The translations under genes were made by a program, and so were the position numbers. A DNA stretch of 32,000 nt from Cylindrospermopsis raciborskii Cr2010. GTDB lineage: Bacteria; Cyanobacteriota; Cyanobacteriia; Cyanobacteriales; Nostocaceae. The notes beneath the pieces were generated by a model that was given only the letters and a program-made list of their open reading frames with translations, made no database searches and was not told the origin of the DNA. Below are positions 20,183-31,938 of the stretch, in pieces. The stretch covers positions 60,001-92,000 of the forward strand of contig NZ_CP065936.1 in assembly GCF_003367075.2 (NCBI RefSeq), in the 5' to 3' direction. Every line of letters begins with the position of its first letter. Position 1 is the first letter of the stretch.

Positions 20183-20244
20183 GCACGTTATCGGCATAAT
20201 AGTAATACCATTAGATGCAGATAACGTGCCGATATTATGCCGAT
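20183..20244 (+). promoter_or_regulatory. Two interleaved inverted repeats in the fic leader, the second covering the start codon
   Basis: gcacgttatc (20183-20192) / gataacgtgc (20220-20229); atcggcataat (20190-20200) / attatgccgat (20234-20244, includes ATG 20237-20239). Confidence 0.5.
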
Positions 20245-21328
20245 GAATTTCTCACCTAACTACACGATTACCCCGAAGATAGCAAAATTCCTGATGCGTA
20301 TTGAGACTGTGAGGGAAAGAGTTTGTTATCTACCTATAACAGCAATGGTGCTGGCTTCCCTGCGCGAGACAGCGCGGCTATACACGACTCACTACTCAAC
20401 AATGATCGAGGGAAACCGCCTCGCACCAGATGAGATTGAGAATGTTGTCAAGTATGAAGGACATTTTCCTGGTAGGCACAGAGATGAGCGAGAAGTGAAA
20501 GGTTACTACGCCGCCCTGGCAAAGCTTGAACAATGGGTAGCAGCAGGTGTGCAGGTAAGTGAAAAGATTATTCAGACCTTACATGCTGTTGTGATGTCTG
20601 ACGGAAGAACTACAGCCCAACCTTCCGCCTATAGGGATGGGCAAAATGTGATTTGGGATGCATCTAACGGTACAATTGTCTATATGCCTCCTGAAGCAAA
20701 AGACGTACCATTTTTGATGAAAGCAATGGTGAAGTGGATTCATCAGTCTCAGGAAGTTCCTTGTCCCGTAGTAGCTGGCATTGCCCACTACCAGTTTGCC
20801 ACGATTCATCCCTACTACGATGGTAATGGTAGAACAGCGCGGCTACTAACAACCTTAATTCTGCATCTAGGAGGATATGACCTAAAGGGTCTGTACTCAT
20901 TGGAGGAATACTACGCTCGAAACCTAACTGCTTATTATGAAGCCATCAGTGTGGGAGAGTCTCACAATTATTACTTAGGAAGAGTGGAAGCTGACATCAC
21001 TAAGTGGGTCGAGTATTTTGTGGAGGGTATGGCTATCGCCTTTGAAAATGTTTTGAAACGCATGGCTGAAGCTGAATTGCAAGGTTCAGTAGATCAAGAT
21101 CCCATACTTAGGCAACTAGATCCCAGACAGAGGAAGGCTTTGTCTTTGTTTCAGCAGTTTGAGGTAGTTACCAGTAAGCAGATCGGCGAGTTGTTTGGTT
21201 TTAAACCACGCACCAGCGCTCAAATTTGTAAAGACTGGGTTGAAAGTGGGTTTCTGGAAATGGTTGACCCTTCAAACAGAGGTAGAAAGTATAAACTTTC
21301 TACCCAATATAAAGATTTGCTCAATTAA
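20237..21328 (+). CDS. Fic-family protein (AMPylase-type), class II with N-terminal inhibitory helix and C-terminal winged-helix-like region
   Basis: Fic motif HPYYDGNGRTAR (20807-20842; Tyr at the usual Phe position); inhibitory motif S-TMI-E-G ([ST]xxxE[GN], Glu58 at 20408-20410). 56 G+C in the 100-nt sample 20341-20440. Confidence 0.9.
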   Translation: MPMNFSPNYTITPKIAKFLMRIETVRERVCYLPITAMVLASLRETARLYTTHYSTMIEGNRLAPDEIENVVKYEGHFPGRHRDEREVKGYYAALAKLEQWVAAGVQVSEKIIQTLHAVVMSDGRTTAQPSAYRDGQNVIWDASNGTIVYMPPEAKDVPFLMKAMVKWIHQSQEVPCPVVAGIAHYQFATIHPYYDGNGRTARLLTTLILHLGGYDLKGLYSLEEYYARNLTAYYEAISVGESHNYYLGRVEADITKWVEYFVEGMAIAFENVLKRMAEAELQGSVDQDPILRQLDPRQRKALSLFQQFEVVTSKQIGELFGFKPRTSAQICKDWVESGFLEMVDPSNRGRKYKLSTQYKDLLN

Positions 21329-21936: not shown

Positions 21937-24003
21937 TTAAGGTTGTAAATTTAAGGCCCATTTGAACCATTGCCAAACAGAATAAATACCCTGAATGTAT
22001 CTTACACCTGGTGCTTTAATTGCTGCTAGAGCTTCCACTGATCTATGGGCGGCGTATTGCAGTCCTAAAAATGTATCCACCGGTGCATAGGGACCCCCCA
22101 GAGTAATAATCCCAGCTGCATACACACGAGATTGAGAATCTCTAGGGTGACGCAATTGCCTAATTTCAAAGTTATTTTTTACATAAAATCTTCTATCCGG
22201 ATTTAAATCCAAATCATAGTGATTAATTAAATCCTTCAAAAATGGACTTTGGAGCGGGTCGGAAATTAACCCGGTACAATCAATGACAAAATTAGCCTTT
22301 ATTTCCTTGTATCCCTCATTAGTTACCAAAGAAGCAACTATTCTACCTTCCGAACCGCGCTGTATTTTATCCGCCAAACCATAATAGAGTTTATACCATC
22401 CCTGTTGTTTACCCTCCTGCACAATTTTACGCCATTGTTTGCGACTTGCAGTGGTTGTGCCACCCCAAAGATCTAATAATTCCCTACGCTTAAACGGTTC
22501 CGATGCTTCCAATAGTTTTCGCATATCCCCGCCCCAGGTGGCTTTAGGCCAATTATATGGTTGAAATTCCCAATCATTTTCTACATATCTTTGGGATCTC
22601 TCAAACTTATTCCCACTACGCGGATTACGATTCAAATGAATGACATCAATATTTTTATTTCTTTTACGAGCTTGGTATATTCTATCCAACACCTGTGATG
22701 CTACAATTCCTGAACCTCTTAAAATTAGAGTTCCACCATGTTTCTCCAAATGAGTATAAATGTGGTCGTGTTCCTCATAACCCTGGACAACTGTTCGACT
22801 ATTTCCCGTCTCTTGAGGATATTCCTGACGGTATTTTTCTAAATCTGGTAATAGTTTCAGTCCAGGATAACCAGTGCAAATGTGAACATATCTAGCTAAC
22901 AAAAACTGGTAATGCCTACGATTTTGTGGATCGCTACAGTATGCAATACAATATCTCCCATCCTCTGTTTGACGTAAACTGAGAATAGCTCCAGGTTCTA
23001 ACATTTTCTGCCAATTTATGCGTTCCGCCTCCCGATCCATAGAGTCAAATACATCTCCAGCTATAGGAGTATAAGTATCAGCATAAACAGGTTCTGCAAA
23101 CACCTGCCATAAAAATCCTATAGCAGCACCTATTTGTCCAGAAAACAAAGCCTTTTTAGCATCTCTTAATCCATATCCTGGCCATCCCCAAATATTATCA
23201 GGACAAGAATCAGAACCGGAGCGAATGCGTTTATCTTCAGAGATTTGGCAGTTTTTAAGCAGGGTTTTATATCGTTGATAGGGTTTTTCTTGATTGCTAA
23301 GGATTTTAATATTTTCTGTTTTAACCCCTGCAATTCTCAACATATCCACCCAGACAAAACTGCCCATTCCTCCCCCACAGGCGAGATATTCCGTTTCTCG
23401 CACCAGGAACCCACTACTCTCAATTTCTCTTAGGGAAATCTGTGGTCTGTGCCAAAAGCTTAAATTATAAGGGAATTCAGAACGGGAAATAGATGGGGAA
23501 GAACTTACTTGCTGTTCTAGAATGCCCGTATGAGGATTAAAAGAGATAGATGAGGCAACATTTGGTATAGGTTCCAGTCGTGATGCTGGTAATACTTGAC
23601 TTTGAGGGTCAAAATTAAAAACCGTTGCAGCATCACCCACAATAACTGTTCCCTCATCCTGACCACCACCTTCAAGAATCACCACAGTTATCGTGTAACC
23701 ACCAATGACTATGGTATCACCAGTGTTTAAAACCTGACCTTGTTTTACCAGTAATTTGCCATTAACCTTAGTACCATTACTACTTTGGTCTTCTAAATAA
23801 ACCCGATTATTATTCAATCTGATTTGAGCGTGAAATCGAGAGATTTGGCGGTTATTATCTAATAGCACTATTGGACTAACCGGTTCATTGTTCAAATTGG
23901 GAGGTAAAGCAGATAAATCTCTACCAATAGCGATCGGCAAGTTAAAAACCTGCTCTACCTGTTCTTGAGTAATTTTATTTTCAGAAACCAGTTTTATTTG
24001 CAT
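21937..24003 (-). CDS. FHA-domain protein fused to a two-dinucleotide-binding-domain flavoprotein-like region
   Basis: FHA signature at aa ~22-108 (IGR..., ISRFHAQI, SSNGTKVNG, 23680-23940); glycine-rich motifs GGGMGS (aa 210-215, 23359-23376) and GSGIVA (aa 430-435, 22699-22716). Confidence 0.75.
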   Translation of the reverse strand: MQIKLVSENKITQEQVEQVFNLPIAIGRDLSALPPNLNNEPVSPIVLLDNNRQISRFHAQIRLNNNRVYLEDQSSNGTKVNGKLLVKQGQVLNTGDTIVIGGYTITVVILEGGGQDEGTVIVGDAATVFNFDPQSQVLPASRLEPIPNVASSISFNPHTGILEQQVSSSPSISRSEFPYNLSFWHRPQISLREIESSGFLVRETEYLACGGGMGSFVWVDMLRIAGVKTENIKILSNQEKPYQRYKTLLKNCQISEDKRIRSGSDSCPDNIWGWPGYGLRDAKKALFSGQIGAAIGFLWQVFAEPVYADTYTPIAGDVFDSMDREAERINWQKMLEPGAILSLRQTEDGRYCIAYCSDPQNRRHYQFLLARYVHICTGYPGLKLLPDLEKYRQEYPQETGNSRTVVQGYEEHDHIYTHLEKHGGTLILRGSGIVASQVLDRIYQARKRNKNIDVIHLNRNPRSGNKFERSQRYVENDWEFQPYNWPKATWGGDMRKLLEASEPFKRRELLDLWGGTTTASRKQWRKIVQEGKQQGWYKLYYGLADKIQRGSEGRIVASLVTNEGYKEIKANFVIDCTGLISDPLQSPFLKDLINHYDLDLNPDRRFYVKNNFEIRQLRHPRDSQSRVYAAGIITLGGPYAPVDTFLGLQYAAHRSVEALAAIKAPGVRYIQGIYSVWQWFKWALNLQP

Positions 24004-25760: not shown

Positions 25761-26672
25761 ATGAAAAAGAACTTATTTCCCACACTATCTGGCATAACTC
25801 TATTAGCTCTCCTCGGATCATTGCCAATGATTGCAAGCGCCCAAACAGCTGATCGCTCAGCCCCAGTTCCCACTCTACAACTAAATATCACAACAGGTGG
25901 TGATGACTTGCGGGAAGGTAGCGTGGCCTATGCTGAAATTCGTCTTCGAGACGGTAGAACCTTACCAAAAACCAATTTAAATGGTGGTAGAGGTTTGGGT
26001 GGTAACTCCAGAAACTCCTTTTCCGTATCTTTACCCACTGGGATACAACTGGGCGATCTAGATGGATCCCTTCTTACTATTAGTCACGACGGCGCACCCC
26101 GCCGCTTTCCTGATGGATATGACAACTGGAATGTGGATGCTATGAGTGTAACAACTGCACGAGTTTGCTCCGGTGGGTTGTCTGTATCTAGCGCTACGGG
26201 TAGTCCTTGGGTTCGTTTTACCGGCGGCAAAACCTTTGAAGCCGTACCCTTTCGTGCCCCAGATACATCCCGTGAAGCCAGTCCTTCATCTCTAGGATTA
26301 AAGATAGTAACAGGTGGTGATGACCTACGAGAGGGTAGTGTGGCCTATGCTGAAATTCGTCTTCGAGACGGTAGAACATTACCTAGGGTGAACTTGACTG
26401 GTGGTAGGGGACTGACGGGTAACTCAGTTCGCAATTTTTCTGTATCTCTACCTGCAGGTACACGACTGGGCGATCTTGCAACCTTCACCTTGTCCCATGA
26501 TGGTGCGCCGCGTCGTCCCTTCGATGGCTATGATAATTGGAATGTGGATAGTTTGAATGTGACCACACCTGAAGTTTGCTCTAGCGTATCACTTGCTAAC
26601 CTCTCTGGCCGTCCTTGGGTTCGTTTTACCGGTGGCAAAACCTTTGAAACGGTAACACTACGTGTGCGATAA
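25761..26672 (+). CDS. Secreted protein made of two tandem ~127-aa PLAT/LH2-like repeats (family assignment tentative)
   Basis: Signal peptide MKKNLFPTLSGITLLALLGSLPMIASA-QT; each repeat reads TGGDDLREGSVAYAEIRLRDGRTLP...FSVSLP...LGDL...SHDGAPRR..DGYDNWNVD...V, echoing the PLAT pattern (...LG.L..I.I.HDN.G...W.L..V.V). Confidence 0.8.
   Translation: MKKNLFPTLSGITLLALLGSLPMIASAQTADRSAPVPTLQLNITTGGDDLREGSVAYAEIRLRDGRTLPKTNLNGGRGLGGNSRNSFSVSLPTGIQLGDLDGSLLTISHDGAPRRFPDGYDNWNVDAMSVTTARVCSGGLSVSSATGSPWVRFTGGKTFEAVPFRAPDTSREASPSSLGLKIVTGGDDLREGSVAYAEIRLRDGRTLPRVNLTGGRGLTGNSVRNFSVSLPAGTRLGDLATFTLSHDGAPRRPFDGYDNWNVDSLNVTTPEVCSSVSLANLSGRPWVRFTGGKTFETVTLRVR
25875..26669 (+). repeat. Internal tandem duplication (period 417 nt = 139 codons) within the secreted-protein gene
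   Basis: Repeat 1 aa 39-165, repeat 2 aa 178-303; a 38-nt block is identical between them (25923-25960 = 26340-26377). Confidence 0.9.
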
Positions 26673-26793: not shown

Positions 26794-27027
26794 CTATTCT
26801 CCATAAATCTCTTCGAATACAGATGTTAGCCCCGCATTTAAATCTTGCAGTGCTGCATCGATACTTTCATAAGTTTCTTTTCCTTCCCAAAGTGTTCCAC
26901 CACAATCTAGTGCACGGATAAAAGAATTTAAGGGACCATTGTCATCGTAGCCAATTTCAATCAAACCTTCATGTTCATCAACCCATCGAGCAATATTCGG
27001 ATAGGTTTTTTCGAATGAAACTTTCAT
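26794..27027 (-). CDS. Small acidic hypothetical protein (77 aa)
   Basis: Clean ORF on the same strand, 102 bp downstream of the nuclease gene; no motif recognised. Confidence 0.5.
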   Translation of the reverse strand: MKVSFEKTYPNIARWVDEHEGLIEIGYDDNGPLNSFIRALDCGGTLWEGKETYESIDAALQDLNAGLTSVFEEIYGE

Positions 27028-27129: not shown

Positions 27130-28548
27130 TTAATTATCACCTAGTACAATCAGATCACGTAGATAATAAAACTGATCAGTCCTCCAATCCGTACCTCTTT
27201 TTTTACCCAAATATCCTGTCAGAGGTGATGATAGTTCTATCAATATTTCGTGCATCTCTTCAAGTTTTAATGGGACTGATGAGGGTGTGCCAAAATAAAC
27301 GCCATGTAAATTACCTACCATTGCAAATTCTAGTCCTGAATTGCGCAAATATTCCTTGACTAATCTCACCAGATGGGATCGTATCTTGATTTGCTTCTCT
27401 ACTTTTTCTATATATTCGTCAATCCCATCATCTATTTGACCAGGTTCTAAATATTCCTTTAATTCTAGAAGATTTACTGCTCCTGGATATGTGGCTTTTA
27501 GTTGCACTAATTTTTGTAATGTCATGGCTTTGATAATACTAGTTTTGGAAATTTTGGCAGATCTGATCAACGATTGTTGCAGCTGTTTGGTAGGACCACC
27601 CGGTCCAATAATTAAACGCACTGCTTGCAAATAATTTTCTTGCAAGTGTCTTTTAGCAATTCTATCTAATTCTTCTACTGCACGGTCTGGAATACTTTTA
27701 CCAGATTTACATTCACAAACTAGAGGAAACGGGTCAGAACAATATAAATCTAACCCTCCTACACCCCCTTTATAGCTATTTTCTACTCTAAATCCCAAAA
27801 ATTCTAAACCTCGTCGACAAATATTCTCAAAGTCTGTACCTGCTTGATAGTTACTTTTCCTCTCTTCTAGTTCTATACTTCTATCCCCTAAAAAGGAAAT
27901 GGTTTTTATCCAATCTAAATCAGAATTTACAGTCCCTTTCTGTTTAACATTACTCCATCCTAGAAATTCTCTAATTTCCTGTTGTAATTGCTGGTAAACA
28001 GGAAATTCTGGGCTACTTTTCATCAGGGATGATAACAGACTATCTAGTTTTTCTATTTGAGGGTGTAAAGGAGGTTGGCGATTTTCTAGTCTTTTCTGAC
28101 GTTGAAGAAACACATAATCATCTAATACAGGTTGATTTTCTGACGTATATATATCATCTAAAGGTATGAATTTTCCCAGCTTTTGCTCAATGTTGGGGAA
28201 TGTTTTAACTTTGACAAATGTATCTAAATAGTAAACCCGTAAATGAGCTAGAAAAAAATGCGGACGTTTTTCTAGTATTTGCCGAAAAAAATCTGGTTCC
28301 CGCATGGTTAACTGAGCTAGAATGTCTAAAGGACCGGTTTTATCAATAATTTGACAACCTTGACATCTAGCCCAACATTTTATTAAAACTTCTTGAGAAT
28401 TCAGATCAGCTGGAAACAAGGCAAAAGCCTGTCCACTACCCATTAGTAACTTCTGTGGTATAACACTAATAATTCGTCCTTGTATTAGGTGTTCAATATC
28501 AATATCTGGTAAGCAGAGGGCATTATAAATTAAGACAGATTTACTCAT
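27130..28548 (-). CDS. PD-(D/E)xK (Mrr/restriction-endonuclease-type) nuclease fused to unassigned N- and C-terminal domains
   Basis: ...TDFENICRRGLEFLGFRVENSYKGGVGGLD267LYCSDPFPLVCE279CK281SGK... (27706-27750) fits the Mrr_cat pattern FE..(h)..G(F/Y).V...GG(I/L)D(I/L)...(h)(h).(E/Q)CK; starts 22 bp after the ATPase stop. Confidence 0.75.
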   Translation of the reverse strand: MSKSVLIYNALCLPDIDIEHLIQGRIISVIPQKLLMGSGQAFALFPADLNSQEVLIKCWARCQGCQIIDKTGPLDILAQLTMREPDFFRQILEKRPHFFLAHLRVYYLDTFVKVKTFPNIEQKLGKFIPLDDIYTSENQPVLDDYVFLQRQKRLENRQPPLHPQIEKLDSLLSSLMKSSPEFPVYQQLQQEIREFLGWSNVKQKGTVNSDLDWIKTISFLGDRSIELEERKSNYQAGTDFENICRRGLEFLGFRVENSYKGGVGGLDLYCSDPFPLVCECKSGKSIPDRAVEELDRIAKRHLQENYLQAVRLIIGPGGPTKQLQQSLIRSAKISKTSIIKAMTLQKLVQLKATYPGAVNLLELKEYLEPGQIDDGIDEYIEKVEKQIKIRSHLVRLVKEYLRNSGLEFAMVGNLHGVYFGTPSSVPLKLEEMHEILIELSSPLTGYLGKKRGTDWRTDQFYYLRDLIVLGDN

Positions 28549-28570
28549 AATTCATTAATACTAGGCAATT

Positions 28571-30511
28571 TTAACCGAAAAGATCAGCTAAGTCATCTTC
28601 TTTTTCTGCTTCATTTATATCAGAATTAGAGAACAATTCCTCTATAATGTCTTCATCACTGACCTGAATCATGGTTCCAGATGGATCACTGAGAATTTCT
28701 CTCAATAAGAGATTATCAAAGGTAATTTTGTTTTGGCGAATAATATCAAAAATCTCCTGTTCAGTTAGTTGGTAATTTTCTCGCTTTTGATAAATATGCA
28801 ATATTGCTATGAGTGGTCGAATTTGATTGTCGATTAGATCTACATTTTCTCCTCCTTTTTCTGATATCAATTCATTGAGTAACTTATAGCTCTCTGATTT
28901 TTTCTTCATTTGTTCTATCTTAGCATAAGAACGAACCAAACAGCCACGAGTCAAATCAAATGTTTCATAATCATTTAAGCGCTTCAAGCAAGCATTTAAT
29001 GTGAAAAGAGTATCCTGAACAACTGCTAAACCAATTTTTACCAGTCTTCCATTCTCATGTCCAACAATTTTGAACCTGATAAAATTCTTATTTTTACTCT
29101 TTGGTTGCACATCATCAATAATTTCTTCTATCATTACTTGTTCTAGCACCTGTCCTTTTAAAGTGGTAAATCCAAAATACAGAGCTTCTGCAATCAGGTC
29201 GCTATCCTCTGAATAATCTTTAATATCAGTAGCCATTTCCCTAGTAAATCCCAGTTCAAATCTGGAAGCAGGATCTTGAGGAAGCTGTTCTTCTTGTACA
29301 CGAAAATTGTTGGCGCACCATTGTAAGGCCTCTCTAACAGTTGGTTTATTTTTACCATATTCTTTAAGTTGGCTTTCTGAAAATGGATAAAGTATATGGG
29401 GAGGAATTAAATTTTTTGAAGTATAATATTCATTGAGCCATATAGCGACTATATCTAATATGGAGTTTGTGTTGAGAGGTTCTAAATCTATGGGTTTTCG
29501 TTGGGTAAACTTAGAAATTCGGTGAGGTGTACCATCGAGGAGAGAATTGACCTGCTCTTTCCATACTGCTGGTAACATTACCGTAATAATAACTACTCCT
29601 TTGCCCAAGTCTGAGTTTTCTAGGGTGTCATGAAGAATTTTTACAAAAGTGGCGATCACGGTTCCTGTAGGATACCCATCTTCTGTTGAGTTATTTTTGA
29701 CATCCATTTCATCAAAACAAATGACAACTGAGTTATAATAACTAACCAAATTGAGAACTTGTTGGATATTTTTCAGAGCTTCTGCTTCTCTCTCCTGATT
29801 AGTTCTACTAGGATTAGGTAGTCCCAACTCATGAGCATTTGCTTCAGATAACTCTTCACCAGATAGCCATCTAATAGCAAAGGGAGCTTGAGTTTCTGAC
29901 AGTGTCCACAGGATGGCACGAATAATATAGGGATCTGCATCGGGTCTATTTTTCATTACCATTCTTTGGAGAACATTCATCAAGTCTTGATTAGTTCCTT
30001 GCTTCTTCTTATAGGTTTTATCAAAGTTTTTTATTAATTCTGCAGCAGGTTTAGTATTCTCTCTATTTTCACTAGCCATAGCTGTAGCAACTTCTTGCCA
30101 TTGCATTACTCCTTGACTACCAGTTTTGCTCAAACTATCTGCTAGGGTTTGTTGAAATTGATACTTTACTAAATTTAAATCAGTATAATTATTAGCACTT
30201 GCATAAATAAACAAAGCACCTCCCTCTTTTTCTAATTGATGACGAATTCGACTCAAAAGATGAGTTTTACCAACTCCTTGCTGTGCGGTAATGGCAATAG
30301 AAGTTATTTTATCTTGACTATGTTTTGTCTGACGAACAAACTCAATGGCTTCAAATATCTTTTTAGAAGCATGCTGGTTTAATGTTGTCACATCAGGAAA
30401 TCCTTTACCCCAAATATTCTGTTCTTTAACAATGCCCGCATTGATAAAAGGATTGTGACTATTAATAGCAGCATTGACGGATTCTATGGGCGAACTCGGT
30501 GTGTTTGTCAT
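28571..30511 (-). CDS. P-loop NTPase (AAA+/STAND-like) of unknown family
   Basis: Walker A AQQGVGKT (30263-30286), Walker B VVICFDEMD (29702-29728), then VVIITVMLP (sensor-1-like strand); acidic C-terminal tail ...DEDIIEELFSNSDINEAEKEDDLADLFG. Confidence 0.8.
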   Translation of the reverse strand: MTNTPSSPIESVNAAINSHNPFINAGIVKEQNIWGKGFPDVTTLNQHASKKIFEAIEFVRQTKHSQDKITSIAITAQQGVGKTHLLSRIRHQLEKEGGALFIYASANNYTDLNLVKYQFQQTLADSLSKTGSQGVMQWQEVATAMASENRENTKPAAELIKNFDKTYKKKQGTNQDLMNVLQRMVMKNRPDADPYIIRAILWTLSETQAPFAIRWLSGEELSEANAHELGLPNPSRTNQEREAEALKNIQQVLNLVSYYNSVVICFDEMDVKNNSTEDGYPTGTVIATFVKILHDTLENSDLGKGVVIITVMLPAVWKEQVNSLLDGTPHRISKFTQRKPIDLEPLNTNSILDIVAIWLNEYYTSKNLIPPHILYPFSESQLKEYGKNKPTVREALQWCANNFRVQEEQLPQDPASRFELGFTREMATDIKDYSEDSDLIAEALYFGFTTLKGQVLEQVMIEEIIDDVQPKSKNKNFIRFKIVGHENGRLVKIGLAVVQDTLFTLNACLKRLNDYETFDLTRGCLVRSYAKIEQMKKKSESYKLLNELISEKGGENVDLIDNQIRPLIAILHIYQKRENYQLTEQEIFDIIRQNKITFDNLLLREILSDPSGTMIQVSDEDIIEELFSNSDINEAEKEDDLADLFG

Positions 30512-30594
30512 TGTTGTTGTTATGTTTAAGGAATAGGAAACTTCAAAAAGAAAAATGAAGTTCTTGTATTGAGTTAAATTGAGTTGGAAGCATT

Positions 30595-31278
30595 TTAAAC
30601 TAACCGTTTAGCGTAAGACCGCAGTTGAGTTCCGGGAATAAGAATACTGTCTTCCTGTTTATCAGCGGTGAAATCTGGTATTTCCCCGGAAATGAGCTGT
30701 AAAATATCATCAGCTTGCATTTCTACTAACCACTGATTGAACTTTCCCCTCTCCACTCTTTCTCCTATTTCTCTTCTCAGTCTATAAATTGGAACTAAGT
30801 TGTCAAAATTGTATTGATTATCCAAAAGACTATAAACTTCTAATAATACGGATTTAAATTCCTCATAGGAAGCAATAACCTTACTATTAGTAGATTCACT
30901 AGCTTTTATTTCCGGTGTTGATGGTGTTGAGTGGGATTGACGTAGTAAAAGCAATAAAGCATTAGCAACCCAAGCACCAACGTTCTTATCAAATTTAAAT
31001 TCCTTATTAGAGAGTCCATTGTGTAAAGTATTAATACCCACAGGTATGGTGATTGTATAACTAACCGTCGCACCTTTCTTTGTGATGGTAATAGCACCAT
31101 CTGCTTCTAAATGTTCTATTATTTGCTGATAGTCAATCATTCTTTGACCTTTAGAGACTATGCGCTTGCCTAACTGACCTTTGGTTACCTTCTGCTCCCC
31201 TGCTCCTAAATCCCATAATGCCAGTAGCAGTCTGGTCTGAGCATAGTTTCCTTGTAATCCTTGTTTTTTTGAAGCCAT
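30595..31278 (-). CDS. Predicted DNA-binding protein with winged-helix-like N- and C-terminal halves
   Basis: N-terminal ...TRLLLALWDLGAGEQKVTKGQLGKRI...IIEHLEADGAITITKKGATVSYTIT... has helix-turn-helix plus beta-wing character; C-terminal ...LVPIYRLRREIGERVERGKFNQWLVEMQADDILQLISGE... is similar in type. Assignment by eye only. Confidence 0.55.
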   Translation of the reverse strand: MASKKQGLQGNYAQTRLLLALWDLGAGEQKVTKGQLGKRIVSKGQRMIDYQQIIEHLEADGAITITKKGATVSYTITIPVGINTLHNGLSNKEFKFDKNVGAWVANALLLLLRQSHSTPSTPEIKASESTNSKVIASYEEFKSVLLEVYSLLDNQYNFDNLVPIYRLRREIGERVERGKFNQWLVEMQADDILQLISGEIPDFTADKQEDSILIPGTQLRSYAKRLV

Positions 31279-31342
31279 ACTTCTTAGTTCCTAAACAACT
31301 CTAACAATCTTAACACTTAATGGTACTCTTTTTATTACCAAA

Positions 31343-31356
31343 ATTCACGGGTGAAT
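31343..31356. promoter_or_regulatory. Perfect 6-2-6 palindrome upstream of the wHTH gene (candidate operator)
   Basis: ATTCAC-GG-GTGAAT, 65-78 nt upstream of the ATG at 31278. Confidence 0.35.
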
Positions 31357-31397
31357 AACTACCTATCTGAGACTTCCTAACTTTTACTTAGACGCAA

Positions 31398-31847
31398 CTA
31401 CCCCTTGTTTTTAATCAACATAACATCAACAATTTTTGAAGCTACTTCCTCCGATAAGTCTAAAGCTTTATATAAATCACCCAAAAGATCTTCTTCCTCC
31501 TGAGTAACTTCCCCATCTGCTAAAATAAGATCCGAAACCACAGCAAAAGCAGTTTCATGCAAATCACGAGGTAGGGAAGAAACAGCAGATTGAAGAAGAT
31601 TACTAAATCCGTCTCTTTTTATCAAAAACAACAATCTATCAAACAACTTTCGTATCACATCAGTAGAATAACTACGAAATAACTTCATCCTATTTAGCGA
31701 AGCCATTAAACCTAATACCTCTTCATCTGAACAGTATCCATCTGCAGTAATTGAAATAAGGGCAATACCAGCTAAAGCCTCTGCAGGACTCATAACGGTC
31801 TGATTTTCATTACGCAACTGTGAAAAACGATTTCCAAACAAAGCCAT
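31398..31847 (-). CDS. TerB-family (tellurite-resistance TerB domain) protein
   Basis: 149 aa; two TerB-type repeats ...ISITADGYCSDEEVLGLMASL... and ...DLILADGEVTQEEEDLLGDLYKALDL... Confidence 0.75.
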   Translation of the reverse strand: MALFGNRFSQLRNENQTVMSPAEALAGIALISITADGYCSDEEVLGLMASLNRMKLFRSYSTDVIRKLFDRLLFLIKRDGFSNLLQSAVSSLPRDLHETAFAVVSDLILADGEVTQEEEDLLGDLYKALDLSEEVASKIVDVMLIKNKG

Positions 31848-31909
31848 AAGTGCCTCCTACAAGACGTGTTAAATTTAGAACAAAAACGGCTTTTACATCT
31901 AGCGCAAAA

Positions 31910-31938
31910 ATTATACTAGACTTTCACCTAAGTTTCAA
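31910..31938 (-). promoter_or_regulatory. Near-consensus sigma-70-type promoter for the TerB gene (and possibly the genes downstream)
   Basis: On the minus strand TTGAAA (31938-31933), 17-bp spacer, TATAAT (31915-31910); about 63 nt upstream of the ATG at 31847. Confidence 0.5.

What the first reader, a model, noticed from the sequence alone, without database searches (positions are those of the whole stretch)
27130..31278. Candidate undescribed defence-like system: wHTH protein + P-loop NTPase + PD-(D/E)xK nuclease fusion
Three co-directional genes are separated by short gaps (83 bp and 22 bp). The first is a 227-aa protein with two winged-helix-like halves. The second is a 646-aa P-loop NTPase (Walker A AQQGVGKT at 30263-30286; Walker B VVICFDEMD at 29702-29728). 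The third is a 472-aa protein with an Mrr/restriction-endonuclease-type core (FENICRRGLEFLGF...GGLD267-x11-E279-C-K281, 27706-27750). A DNA binder plus an NTPase motor plus a nuclease effector is the recurrent logic of restriction-like and abortive-infection immunity (McrBC, Lamassu, Septu, Gabija, Hachiman). The architecture here does not fit those systems as I remember them. There is no McrB-type GTPase signature, and Walker B is not C-terminal as in SMC-like LmuB. There is also no helicase, HNH or TOPRIM domain, and no methyltransferase partner. The genes are AT-rich relative to core genes and lie among other accessory-looking loci (TerB, Fic, Uma2 remnant). From the sequence alone I cannot exclude that it belongs to a described but less familiar family.
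Basis: partly seen in the sequence, partly recalled or inferred. Interest (0 to 1): 0.85.

Follow-up and report, generated by a model that had tools for sequence, protein, structure and literature searches.

The report
Cyanobacterial ATPase–nuclease restriction-like gene triad
Three linked genes in this cyanobacterial genome (a small DNA-binding protein, an ATP-driven motor and a DNA-cutting enzyme with a module likely to read modified bases) look like an untested anti-invader restriction system, and relatives carry very different versions at the same chromosomal spot.

Summary
Three co-directional minus-strand genes lie at 30595-31278 (A, 227 aa), 28571-30511 (B, 646 aa) and 27130-28548 (C, 472 aa).

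- **Identities:** B is an Orc/Cdc6-STAND-type AAA+ ATPase with a formal Pfam KAP_NTPase hit. A has only weak winged-helix support.
- **Conservation:** The A-B-C order holds in essentially all 80 cyanobacterial loci examined. Some relatives fuse B to the nuclease half of C.
- **Evolution:** In Nostocales the triad occupies a fixed mutM-pgi locus. Genomes with at least 95% identical Pgi carry B alleles only 62-96% identical and C alleles 53-91% identical. Tandem copies and broken copies also occur.
- **Database status:** PADLOC, PHROGs, plasmids, phages and viral contigs gave no meaningful hit.
- **Prior description:** This domain architecture was noted in one sentence by Krishnan et al. (NAR 2024) as a predicted anti-invader operon. 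It has not been tested experimentally.

Verdict: a real, probably restriction-like system and a new member of a computationally predicted kind. Interest is moderate.

The parts
30595..31278 (-). Gene A: 227-aa small protein, predicted multi-winged-helix DNA-binding or adaptor subunit
   Evidence: ORF. 1244 homologs, all unnamed. It lies upstream of B in nearly all loci. Weak recurrent wH Pfam hits: SelB-wing_2 in 6 of 35 members, HTH_45 in 3 of 35. No PDB hit by profile.
31024..31251 (-). A residues ~10-85: N-terminal winged-helix-like half (TRLLLALWDLG...GAI...)
   Evidence: Conserved block in alignment A5. Only weak wH hits. No structure prediction was made.
30598..30876 (-). A residues ~135-227: C-terminal winged-helix-like half. 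Its tail (residues 186-227) co-varies with the C-terminal domain of B and the ASCH domain of C.
   Evidence: LVPIYRIRREIG...W..EMQ block invariant. Segment correlations of the tail are 0.64 with C_ASCH and 0.52-0.58 with B_CTD, but 0.23 with A_N.
28571..30511 (-). Gene B: 646-aa Orc/Cdc6-STAND-type AAA+ ATPase (formal KAP_NTPase Pfam hit)
   Evidence: Pfam KAP_NTPase 28.4 bits (cut-off 20), plus AAA_16 and AAA_22 below their cut-offs; NCBIfam Sll1717 family at 33 bits, below cut-off. Foldseek hits to mS29, an NLR resistosome, BrxC 9zdx, Orc1/Cdc6 2qby and RdrA, probability 0.92-0.99 but low TM. The AF2 model has mean pLDDT 66.5.
30392..30454 (-). B residues 20-40: invariant N-terminal motif NPF...W...PD in a segment predicted disordered; possible docking motif
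   Evidence: N20, P21, F22, W34, P39 and D40 are invariant in A4, and P21 is invariant even at 25% identity. pLDDT is about 30.
29477..30376 (-). B residues ~46-345: AAA+ core, with Walker A at 30263-30286 and Walker B at 29702-29728
   Evidence: G79, G81, K82 and D267 are invariant in 76 of 76 triads and E268 in 75 of 76. This is the most conserved part among close relatives, at 80-94% identity.
28574..29251 (-). B residues 421-646: hypervariable C-terminal domain, with alpha-beta-beta-beta-alpha-beta topology then a helical part. Possibly an inactive REase plus wHTH; a candidate sensor or specificity module.
   Evidence: pLDDT 80-90 and secondary-structure order from AF2. Identity is 54-71% among genomes whose Pgi is at least 95% identical. 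hhalign against the REase of C gave nothing, so the inactive-REase assignment is only an inference by analogy with Krishnan et al..
27130..28548 (-). Gene C: 472-aa ASCH - PD-(D/E)xK - winged-helix nuclease
   Evidence: Pfam DUF1802 at 1.8e-16 and Mrr_cat at 22.7 bits (cut-off 21). AF2 mean pLDDT 79.9. Foldseek against PDB and BFVD.
28084..28548 (-). C residues 1-155: ASCH/PUA-like beta-barrel (DUF1802), predicted modified-base or nucleotide reader; variable among alleles
   Evidence: Foldseek: ZmASCH 5y6c (probability 1.00, TMt 0.58), TTHA0113 2dp9 (TMt 0.61), YqfB 9kyf (TMt 0.68). Viral ASCH proteins also match. Identity is 55-72% among close relatives.
27514..27858 (-). C residues 231-345: PD-(D/E)xK (Mrr-type) nuclease core, with E241 at 27826-27828 and D267...E279-x-K281 at 27706-27750
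   Evidence: Mrr_cat hit on residues 237-301. Foldseek hits to HindIII 2e52, Nt.BspD6I and NucS 2vld. All four catalytic residues are invariant in 76 of 76 triads and are kept in the B-C fusion proteins.
27154..27336 (-). C residues ~405-465: C-terminal helix-helix-hairpin, probably a winged helix (IELSSPLTGYLGR...FYYLRDL)
   Evidence: AF2 secondary structure H411-419, H429-439, E447-450, E459-462. The block is invariant. The fold class was not independently confirmed.

Best explanation
The triad is an ATP-dependent, restriction-like anti-invader system. C is the effector: an Mrr-type PD-(D/E)xK nuclease whose N-terminal ASCH (PUA-superfamily) domain inspects a flipped base or a nucleotide, so it probably reads a DNA modification state. 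B is an Orc/Cdc6-STAND-type AAA+ ATPase that binds C and uses ATP to assemble or load the complex on DNA and to license cleavage. A is a small multi-winged-helix protein acting as a DNA-binding or target-discriminating adaptor. The variable cassette (B C-terminal domain, C ASCH domain and A tail) sets what is recognised. Shown here: domain identities, intact catalytic and ATPase motifs, strict operon linkage, B-C gene fusion, mosaic allelic diversity at a fixed locus, and purifying selection. Inferred: complex formation, the DNA target, modification dependence, and a defence phenotype.
For: Domains: ASCH plus Mrr_cat in C; Orc/Cdc6, BrxC and STAND-like AAA+ in B. Motifs are invariant in 76 of 76 triads. 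The A-B-C order is kept in about 80 loci, including a relative of B only 27% identical. The B-C gap is 2 bp in 56 junctions and a 4-bp overlap in 9, out of 79 junctions. Fusion proteins join B to C residues 233-487 (P0365, P0395, P0404), and in L084 such a fusion follows an A gene. Conflict-type evolution: at the same mutM-pgi locus, genome pairs with Pgi at least 95% identical have B at 62-96% and C at 53-91% identity, and B identity correlates with Pgi identity at only r = 0.24. The variability is concentrated in the B C-terminal domain and the C ASCH domain. The A tail co-varies with those two segments 2 kb away. Tandem triads occur in L031 and L081, extra C copies in L029, L077 and L078, and broken copies in L054, L055 and L082, plus a C. 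raciborskii strain with a split B. TA-like genes (PIN, HicB, HEPN/MNT, Uma2) flank several loci. No methyltransferase partner recurs, as in Type IV systems. Literature: PUA-superfamily sensors fused to nucleases are the standard modification-dependent restriction architecture (PMC6765204, PMC11037411). An ASCH-like 5hmC glycosylase defends against T-even phages (PMC13160076). The same three-part architecture is predicted to be anti-invader by Krishnan et al. (PMC10853773).
Against: There is no experimental evidence for any member. There are no hits in PADLOC, plasmids, phages or IMG/VR, so no mobility signal, and in Nostocales the locus is fixed among housekeeping genes. Its wide occurrence across filamentous cyanobacteria (467 related loci among GTDB species genomes, of which only the best 80 were examined) is unusual for a defence system. 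The ligand of the ASCH domain is unknown, and characterised ASCH proteins act on RNA or on N4-acylcytosine. Nostocales DNA is itself heavily methylated (my own knowledge, not tested here), so a simple 'cut methylated DNA' model needs a self-protection rule that I cannot identify. The B model has low confidence and its C-terminal fold is unassigned.
Confidence: 0.55

Rival explanations
1. A STAND/Avs-like abortive-infection switch. The hypervariable B C-terminal domain (perhaps with the ASCH domain sensing a nucleotide danger signal) recognises a phage protein or product. ATP-dependent oligomerisation of B then activates C to degrade DNA indiscriminately, which kills or arrests the infected cell in the filament.
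For: Relatives of B give weak NB-ARC, NACHT and nSTAND Pfam hits. Foldseek hits for B include an NLR resistosome and RdrA. A hypervariable C-terminal sensor-like domain is typical of STAND proteins. Mrr-like REase effectors occur in NTP-dependent conflict systems of multicellular bacteria (PMC7159879). A PUA domain that senses m6-dAMP has been reported (PMC12871103 abstract). The distribution is restricted to filamentous or multicellular cyanobacteria in the 80 loci seen.
Against: No PADLOC Avs, NLR or other STAND model matches. B lacks repeat-type (TPR, LRR or WD) sensor arrays. The presence of a dedicated DNA-binding wHTH partner and a base-reading domain on the nuclease fits direct DNA discrimination better.
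Confidence: 0.2
2. A housekeeping DNA-transaction system of filamentous cyanobacteria, for example methylation-aware repair, replication-fork or chromosome-copy processing. It would be inherited vertically at a fixed site next to mutM.
For: The triad has a fixed syntenic position, fibrillin-mutM-(mdh)-...-ABC-...-pgi, in most Nostocales loci. It occurs widely in filamentous cyanobacteria. It shows no association with mobile-element, plasmid or phage sequences. Every segment is under purifying selection. Some B relatives carry a SeqA_C-like domain, a reader of hemimethylated GATC, although the hits are just below the Pfam cut-off.
Against: Housekeeping genes do not usually show 62-96% allele divergence between genomes whose flanks are 97% identical. 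Nor do they usually show mosaic module swapping, tandem amplification and frequent pseudogenisation. The mutM linkage is interrupted by unrelated genes, and it is lost in this window, in Anabaena sp. 90 and in Microcoleus.
Confidence: 0.1
3. A domesticated or selfish remnant of a mobile element: a transposon-derived AAA+ regulator, REase and wHTH target selector in the manner of TnsC, TnsA and TniQ, or an addiction module maintained by post-segregational killing.
For: Orc/Cdc6-related ATPases coupled to REase domains derive repeatedly from transposons (PMC10853773). Krishnan et al. call the related neighbourhoods 'mobile'. The triad duplicates in tandem.
Against: No transposase, integrase or terminal repeats were seen next to the triad in the recurrent flanking families. 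The locus is fixed. No plasmid or virus carries it.
Confidence: 0.05

Closest known systems
Orc/Cdc6 ATPase + ASCH-REase + DndG-like multi-wHTH operons (unnamed; Krishnan, Burroughs, Iyer and Aravind, NAR 2024, PMC10853773)
   Same: The three-component domain logic is the same: an Orc/Cdc6-type AAA+ ATPase, a REase fused to an ASCH domain, and a small multi-wHTH protein in one operon. Their Orc/Cdc6 version carries an inactive REase between the AAA+ core and a C-terminal wHTH. The predicted alpha-beta-beta-beta-alpha-beta plus helical C-terminal domain of B is compatible with that.
   Different: That description is a single sentence with no accessions that I could read, and it calls the neighbourhoods 'mobile'. 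Here the triad is chromosomally fixed in Nostocales. A shows only two recognisable wH-like halves and no detectable DndG/DptG similarity. The inactive REase in B is not confirmed.
McrBC (Type IV, NTP-dependent modification-dependent restriction)
   Same: It works similarly: a modified-base reader, an AAA+ NTPase and a PD-(D/E)xK nuclease encoded in adjacent, translationally coupled genes, with no methyltransferase. Some McrB homologs use PUA-like (YTH or EVE) readers.
   Different: B is not a McrB-type AAA_5 GTPase and C is not a McrC family member. The reader domain sits on the nuclease subunit, not on the NTPase. There is also a third, wHTH subunit.
Single-chain PUA-nuclease modification-dependent endonucleases (MspJI, VcaM4I, the PvuRts1I class and PUA-PD-(D/E)xK fusions; PMC6765204)
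   Same: C alone has the canonical architecture of a PUA-superfamily sensor plus a PD-(D/E)xK nuclease. MspJI appears among the weak Foldseek hits.
   Different: Those enzymes are NTP-independent and stand alone. C is always coupled to, and sometimes fused with, an AAA+ ATPase. The sensor is an ASCH domain, whose role in reading modified DNA is predicted but hardly tested.
BrxC / DUF499 ATPases of BREX and BREX-related systems
   Same: B gives a Foldseek hit to BrxC 9zdx (probability 0.99), and a relative of B gives a weak BrxC_BrxD Pfam hit. BrxC and DUF499 proteins share the layout of an ORC/Cdc6 AAA+ core followed by wHTH and alpha+beta modules with hypervariable C-termini (PMC12839542).
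   Different: There is no PglZ, PglX/BrxX methyltransferase, BrxA or BrxB nearby. B is about half the size of BrxC. The similarity has low TM (0.21-0.25).
Mrr (Type IV restriction endonuclease)
   Same: The nuclease core of C scores above the Pfam Mrr_cat gathering threshold and has the E...D...ExK residues.
   Different: Mrr has an N-terminal winged-helix reader and acts alone. C has an ASCH N-terminus, a C-terminal wH and obligate partners.

Membership tests
Orc/Cdc6 + ASCH-REase + DndG-like wHTH operon (Krishnan et al. 2024) | REase domain fused to an ASCH domain in one protein | tested here: met
   Pfam DUF1802 at 1.8e-16 plus Mrr_cat at 22.7 bits against a cut-off of 21. Foldseek ASCH hits with probability 1.0 and REase hits with probability 0.97-0.99.
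Orc/Cdc6 + ASCH-REase + DndG-like wHTH operon (Krishnan et al. 2024) | Orc/Cdc6-clade AAA+ ATPase encoded in the same operon | tested here: inconclusive
   Operon linkage is met. The fold class is STAND/ORC-Cdc6-like: Foldseek hits to Orc1/Cdc6 2qby, BrxC and NLR proteins (probability 0.99, TM 0.2-0.4) on a model with pLDDT 66. The clade is not resolved, and Pfam calls it KAP_NTPase or AAA_16.
Orc/Cdc6 + ASCH-REase + DndG-like wHTH operon (Krishnan et al. 2024) | Inactive REase inserted between the AAA+ core and the C-terminal wHTH of the ATPase | tested here: inconclusive
   AF2 predicts alpha-beta-beta-beta-alpha-beta at B residues 437-526 followed by helices, with no acidic catalytic residues. 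hhalign against the REase of C gave probability below 1%. No domain-level fold search was possible.
Orc/Cdc6 + ASCH-REase + DndG-like wHTH operon (Krishnan et al. 2024) | DndG-like triple-wHTH protein | tested here: inconclusive
   A gives only weak wH hits (SelB-wing_2, HTH_45). It has no NCBIfam DptG hit and no PDB profile hit. Two wH-like halves are visible, not three. No structure prediction quota was left for A.
McrBC | McrB-type AAA+ (AAA_5) GTPase subunit | tested here: not met
   B gives no AAA_5 or McrB hit in Pfam or PADLOC.
McrBC | McrC-family nuclease subunit | tested here: not met
   C matches Mrr_cat, not McrC. There is no PADLOC hit.
Modification-dependent (Type IV) restriction endonucleases | Cleavage requires a modified base in the substrate | not testable with these tools
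   Only the architecture supports it: a PUA-superfamily sensor plus a nuclease, with no recurrent methyltransferase.
KAP family P-loop NTPases (PF07693) | Score above the Pfam gathering threshold | tested here: met
   28.4 bits against a cut-off of 20, but only profile positions 18-126 of 293 align.
KAP family P-loop NTPases (PF07693) | Transmembrane helices inserted in the P-loop domain (the classical KAP feature; from my own knowledge of Aravind et al. 2004) | not tested
   No TM predictor was run. The insert between Walker A and Walker B (residues ~105-260) is predicted as amphipathic helices.
Avs/AVAST and bacterial NLR-like STAND systems | Match to a STAND NTPase family model, with repeat-type sensor arrays | tested here: not met
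   PADLOC gives 0 families for B at E up to 1. No repeat arrays are present. Only sub-threshold NACHT or NB-ARC hits occur, and only in one distant relative.
BREX | PglZ phosphatase and PglX/BrxX methyltransferase together with BrxC | tested here: not met
   None occurs in the window or in the recurrent flanking families. The only link is a low-TM structural resemblance to BrxC.
Lamassu / Septu / Gabija / Hachiman / other PADLOC v2 systems | Profile match of any component | tested here: not met
   No hit for B. Only noise-level hits for A (HEase, 0.0086) and C (CARF4--CARF_PDDEXK, 0.0047).

The most novel reading that the evidence does not exclude
The triad is a new class of ATP-dependent Type IV-like restriction machine. 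An ORC-like loader and a multi-wH adaptor deliver an ASCH-reader nuclease to invader DNA. It is kept as a chromosomally fixed 'immigration-control' locus in multicellular cyanobacteria. Ancient alleles of a swappable specificity cassette (B C-terminal domain, ASCH domain and A tail) are maintained by balancing selection and recognise different phage DNA modifications. That would give the first experimentally testable DNA-modification ligand for restriction-associated ASCH domains.
Probability: 0.3. Interest if true: 0.7.

Novelty: new member of a known kind. Interest (0 to 1): 0.5.

Why it matters
Anti-phage immunity in filamentous, bloom-forming cyanobacteria (Cylindrospermopsis, Dolichospermum, Nostoc, Microcoleus) is poorly charted, and this triad was found at 467 related loci among species genomes. 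The standard defence-system library I could run, PADLOC, did not detect it. If it restricts DNA, it adds an Orc/Cdc6-driven branch to the NTP-dependent restriction enzymes and gives a tractable system for learning what ASCH domains read in DNA.

The allelic mosaic found here also suggests swap experiments for specificity, because variable sensor modules sit beside a conserved ATPase and nuclease core at one fixed locus. A practical point is that such a nuclease could be one of the barriers to genetic manipulation of these organisms.

Tried and rejected
- **Sequence searches against PDB.** Single sequences of A, B and C gave nothing. Profile searches gave only noise for A and C.
- **Marginal YTH hit in B.** The B profile matched the YTH domain at residues 193-266 (E 1.5e-3). 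It aligns W202 and W215 with tryptophans of YTHDF1 (by my own knowledge of YTHDF1, W202 falls on the m6A-cage residue W465). I rejected it as probably spurious, because the alignment runs into the Walker B strand and AF2 predicts helices there.
- **hhalign between internal domains.** I compared the B C-terminal domain with the C REase, the A halves with the C wH, and the A halves with the B C-terminus. All gave probability below 1%.
- **Genome scan with the broad alignment A3.** It failed for lack of conserved stretches. The narrower alignment A4 worked, but only the best 80 of 467 loci are visible, so the full taxonomic range is not established.
- **Mobility searches.** Plasmid, phage and IMG/VR searches for B found no relatives.
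- **Promoter and terminator scan.** Counts were not above shuffle expectation.
- **Literature.** 'DUF1802' appears in one unrelated paper. My guessed PCC 7120 locus tags gave no papers.
- **Neighbouring ORFs.** The downstream 77-aa ORF (26794-27027) and the upstream TerB-like ORF are not conserved next to the triad elsewhere, so they are not parts of the system.
- **Positive selection.** No segment has a median dN/dS near 1. Recombination among old alleles, not recent positive selection, explains the diversity.

Full report
**1. Observation**

The window carries three co-directional minus-strand ORFs:

| Gene | Coordinates | Length |
|---|---|---|
| A | 30595-31278 | 227 aa |
| B | 28571-30511 | 646 aa |
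| C | 27130-28548 | 472 aa |

The gaps between them are 83 bp and 22 bp.
- Walker A AQQGVGKT is residues 76-83 of B, at 30263-30286.
- Walker B VVICFDEMD is residues 262-270 of B, at 29702-29728.
- D267...E279-C-K281 of C is at 27706-27750.

The genes are real and constrained:
- Each has hundreds to more than a thousand homologs.
- K82 and D267 of B, and E241, D267, E279 and K281 of C, are invariant in 76 of 76 triads.
- dN/dS is 0.14-0.35 in every segment.

The best hits are 97-98% identical proteins from Cylindrospermopsis/Raphidiopsis raciborskii, so the window comes from that organism. The triad is only mildly AT-rich, at 35.6% GC against 40.4 +/- 3.5% for the other ORFs. The window is mostly housekeeping: hupSL, rplU, cemA, a carotenoid gene and glycosyltransferases. 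It also carries a Fic gene and a weak TerB-like ORF.

**2. What the three proteins are**

*Gene C.*
- Pfam finds DUF1802 in residues 51-152 (1.8e-16) and Mrr_cat in residues 237-301 (22.7 bits, cut-off 21).
- An AlphaFold2 model built on 33 homologs has mean pLDDT 79.9.
- The N-terminal beta-barrel matches ASCH proteins in Foldseek: ZmASCH 5y6c (probability 1.00, TMt 0.58), TTHA0113 2dp9 and YqfB 9kyf.
- The middle domain matches restriction-type nucleases: HindIII, Nt.BspD6I, NucS, and MspJI weakly.
- Viral 'ASCH domain-containing' and 'restriction endonuclease' proteins also match.
- The C-terminus is predicted as helix-helix-hairpin, probably a winged helix.
- So C is ASCH - PD-(D/E)xK - wH.

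*Gene B.*
- Pfam gives KAP_NTPase above its threshold (28.4 bits, cut-off 20) and AAA_16 and AAA_22 below theirs. NCBIfam gives a sub-threshold Sll1717-family hit.
- The AF2 model is mediocre overall (pLDDT 66.5) but good in the C-terminal domain.
- Foldseek matches include mS29/DAP3, an NLR resistosome, BrxC, Orc1/Cdc6, DnaA and RdrA. That places B in the STAND/ORC-Cdc6 group of AAA+ ATPases.
- After the ATPase core, residues 437-526 are predicted as alpha-beta-beta-beta-alpha-beta, followed by helices.

*Gene A.*
- It has no significant family hit. Across 35 homologs there are only weak, recurrent winged-helix hits.
- Two conserved halves are visible in the alignment.

*Libraries without hits.* PADLOC gave no meaningful match for any of the three proteins, and PHROGs gave nothing useful.

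**3. Linkage**

- In Anabaena sp. 90 and a Nostoc genome the same A-B-C unit is present with different flanks.
- A scan of one genome per species found 467 related loci. The best 80 are all cyanobacteria, apart from two MAGs labelled Acetobacteraceae and 'uncultured bacterium' that carry the same Nostoc-type triad. The taxa are Nostocales, Microcoleus, Oscillatoria, Lyngbya, Coleofasciculaceae and Waterburya.
- A-B-C order is kept in essentially every locus long enough to show it.
- B and C are separated by 2 bp in 56 junctions and overlap by 4 bp in 9, out of 79 junctions.
- The triad persists with representatives of B that are only 27-34% identical: L089 has A 234 aa, B 596 aa and a DUF1802 C; L088 has A 221 aa, B 788 aa and a C-like gene of 431 aa.
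- About 895-aa proteins fuse B to residues 233-487 of C, which is the nuclease plus wH without the ASCH domain. In L084 such a fusion follows an A gene. This fusion argues that B and the nuclease work as one machine and that the ASCH domain is an add-on sensor.
- The B family is small, with 374 cluster representatives at E up to 1e-3.
- B is absent from plasmid, phage and IMG/VR collections.

**4. Evolutionary behaviour**

- In Nostocales the triad sits at one syntenic site: fibrillin - mutM - (mdh) - a 162-aa gene - A-B-C - 0 to 3 pairs of small genes - pgi.
- The alleles at this site are nonetheless very divergent. Among 56 genome pairs whose Pgi is at least 95% identical (MutM about 93%), B is 62-96% identical and C is 53-91% identical. 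B identity is almost uncorrelated with flank identity (r = 0.24), whereas A follows the flanks (r about 0.8).
- Divergence is concentrated in the C-terminal domain of B (residues ~420-646) and the adjoining ASCH domain of C. The ATPase core and the linker-nuclease core of C are conserved.
- Pairwise-identity correlations resolve three modules:
  - the A tail (residues 186-227), the B C-terminal domain and the C ASCH domain; the A tail co-varies with ASCH (0.64) but not with its own N-terminus (0.23);
  - the nuclease-proximal part of C, which exists in two allelic forms;
  - the variable linker of C plus its wH.
- dS reaches about 1 in the modules of C even when B is 80-97% identical. The diversity therefore reflects recombination among old alleles.
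- There are tandem triads (L031, L081), extra C copies (L029, L077, L078), two separate copies in Sphaerospermopsis NIES-73 (L007, L017), and broken copies (L054, L055, L082; a split B in one C. raciborskii strain).
- TA-like genes (Uma2, PIN, HicB, HEPN/MNT) often lie alongside.
- This pattern is what one expects of a conflict or immigration-control locus, not of a housekeeping operon.

**5. Mechanism**

*Best-supported reading (confidence about 0.55).* The triad is an ATP-dependent, restriction-like complex.
- C cuts DNA through its Mrr-type site.
- The ASCH domain of C interrogates a flipped base or nucleotide.
- B binds C and uses ATP to assemble or load the complex on DNA and to license cleavage.
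- A contributes DNA binding or discrimination.
- The variable cassette sets the specificity.

What is shown: domains, motifs, linkage, fusion and allelic mosaicism. What is inferred: the complex, the substrate, modification dependence and a protective phenotype.

Support from the literature:
- PUA-superfamily sensors fused to nucleases are the canonical modification-dependent restriction architecture (PMC6765204, PMC11037411).
- ASCH domains are predicted readers of 6mA or 4mC, with little experimental support so far.
- An ASCH-like 5hmC glycosylase has recently been shown to defend against T-even phages (PMC13160076).
- Nuclease-NTPase defence systems generally act as complexes (bioRxiv 10.1101/2025.07.10.664194).

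*Rival explanations.*

| Rival | Confidence |
|---|---|
| STAND/Avs-like abortive-infection switch | 0.2 |
| Housekeeping DNA-transaction role | 0.1 |
| Domesticated or selfish mobile-element module | 0.05 |

The evidence for and against each is given in the structured fields.

**6. Comparison with what is known**

- *Closest description.* The closest is one sentence in Krishnan, Burroughs, Iyer and Aravind (NAR 2024, PMC10853773). [quoted passage not shown] The same paper says that this Orc/Cdc6 version carries an inactive REase between the AAA+ core and the C-terminal wHTH, and that the systems are predicted to be anti-selfish-element immunity. The triad here has that architecture.
- *Membership.* Two defining features are met: the ASCH-REase fusion and the operon linkage. 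[quoted passage not shown] The supplement I could read lists no accessions.
- *Functional analogue.* The system works like McrBC, with a reader, an AAA+ NTPase and a PD-(D/E)xK nuclease and no methyltransferase. It is not a member, because no McrB or McrC family match was found.
- *Other families.* It is not Avs, BREX, Lamassu, Septu, Gabija or Hachiman. It resembles BrxC and DUF499 ATPases in general layout only.

**7. Novelty and verdict**

The finding is real and the defence-like reading is reasonable. 'Undescribed' is too strong, because the architecture was predicted computationally in 2024. It remains unnamed, experimentally untested and invisible to PADLOC.

New in this analysis:
- the assignment of Pfam DUF1802 to the ASCH fold in this context;
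- the B-nuclease fusions;
- the wide conservation in filamentous cyanobacteria;
- the fixed-locus, mosaic-allele behaviour with co-variation of the A tail, the B C-terminal domain and the ASCH domain.

I rate it a new member of a known (predicted) kind, with interest 0.5.

Noticed in passing
window 31318-31921 (TerB-like ORF 31398-31847): This stretch of about 600 bp next to gene A is absent from Raphidiopsis brookii D9 (L004). Similarity resumes at 31922, and on the other side it stops 24 bp after the gene C stop codon (27106). The triad is therefore bracketed by strain-specific indels.
   Followed up: partly
L005, L017, L041, L045, L061 and others, between gene C and pgi (e.g. L061:10679-11355): Zero to three tandem pairs of a 120-aa retropepsin-like aspartyl-protease protein (weak Pfam Asp_protease_2 hit) and a 105-aa unknown protein lie just downstream of the triad in Nostocales. 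It may be a TA-like module with variable copy number.
   Followed up: partly
window 27514-27700 (gene C residues ~283-345) and alignment A1: Right after the ExK motif, C exists in two discrete allelic forms (SIPDRAVEELDRIGKRHL... versus SIPSGTVEELLKLGGMHLG...). These forms assort independently of the ASCH domain and of B.
   Followed up: partly
window 30392-30454 (gene B residues 20-40): The motif NPF...W...PD is invariant across the whole family, yet it lies in an N-terminal segment that AlphaFold leaves disordered (pLDDT about 30). It may be a partner-docking peptide.
   Followed up: no
window 29714-29935 (gene B residues 193-266): The B profile gives a marginal match to the YTH (m6A reader) domain, E 1.5e-3, aligning W202 and W215 with YTHDF1 tryptophans. 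It is probably spurious, because the region is predicted helical and the alignment includes the Walker B strand.
   Followed up: yes
proteins P0362, P0363 (relatives of B, about 805 aa): Some B homologs carry a C-terminal SeqA_C-like domain (a reader of hemimethylated GATC) in place of a nuclease fusion. The Pfam hits are just below the family cut-off. This hints at a link to adenine methylation.
   Followed up: no
L031 (Oscillatoria princeps MAG), L081, L007 and L017 (Sphaerospermopsis NIES-73): Whole triads occur in tandem (three B genes in L031) or as two separate copies in one genome. L054, L055 and L082 carry fragmented B or C genes.
   Followed up: partly
window 25761-26672 (+): A 303-aa protein with a signal-peptide-like N-terminus, built of two internal repeats of about 135 aa (GGDDLREGSVAYAEIRLRDGRTLP...). 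It has no Pfam family.
   Followed up: no
window 20237-21328 (+) and 21937-24003 (-): A Fic/DOC-family protein lies next to a 688-aa protein with an N-terminal FHA domain and a large uncharacterised C-terminal region.
   Followed up: no
L085:1-4994 (GCA_011390275.1): A distant homolog of B that aligns mainly over the ATPase half (904 aa, with no A or C partner) sits beside a ResIII helicase, an N6_N4 methyltransferase-DUF559 fusion and an HNH_2 gene. That is a restriction-like cluster in a high-GC genome.
   Followed up: no
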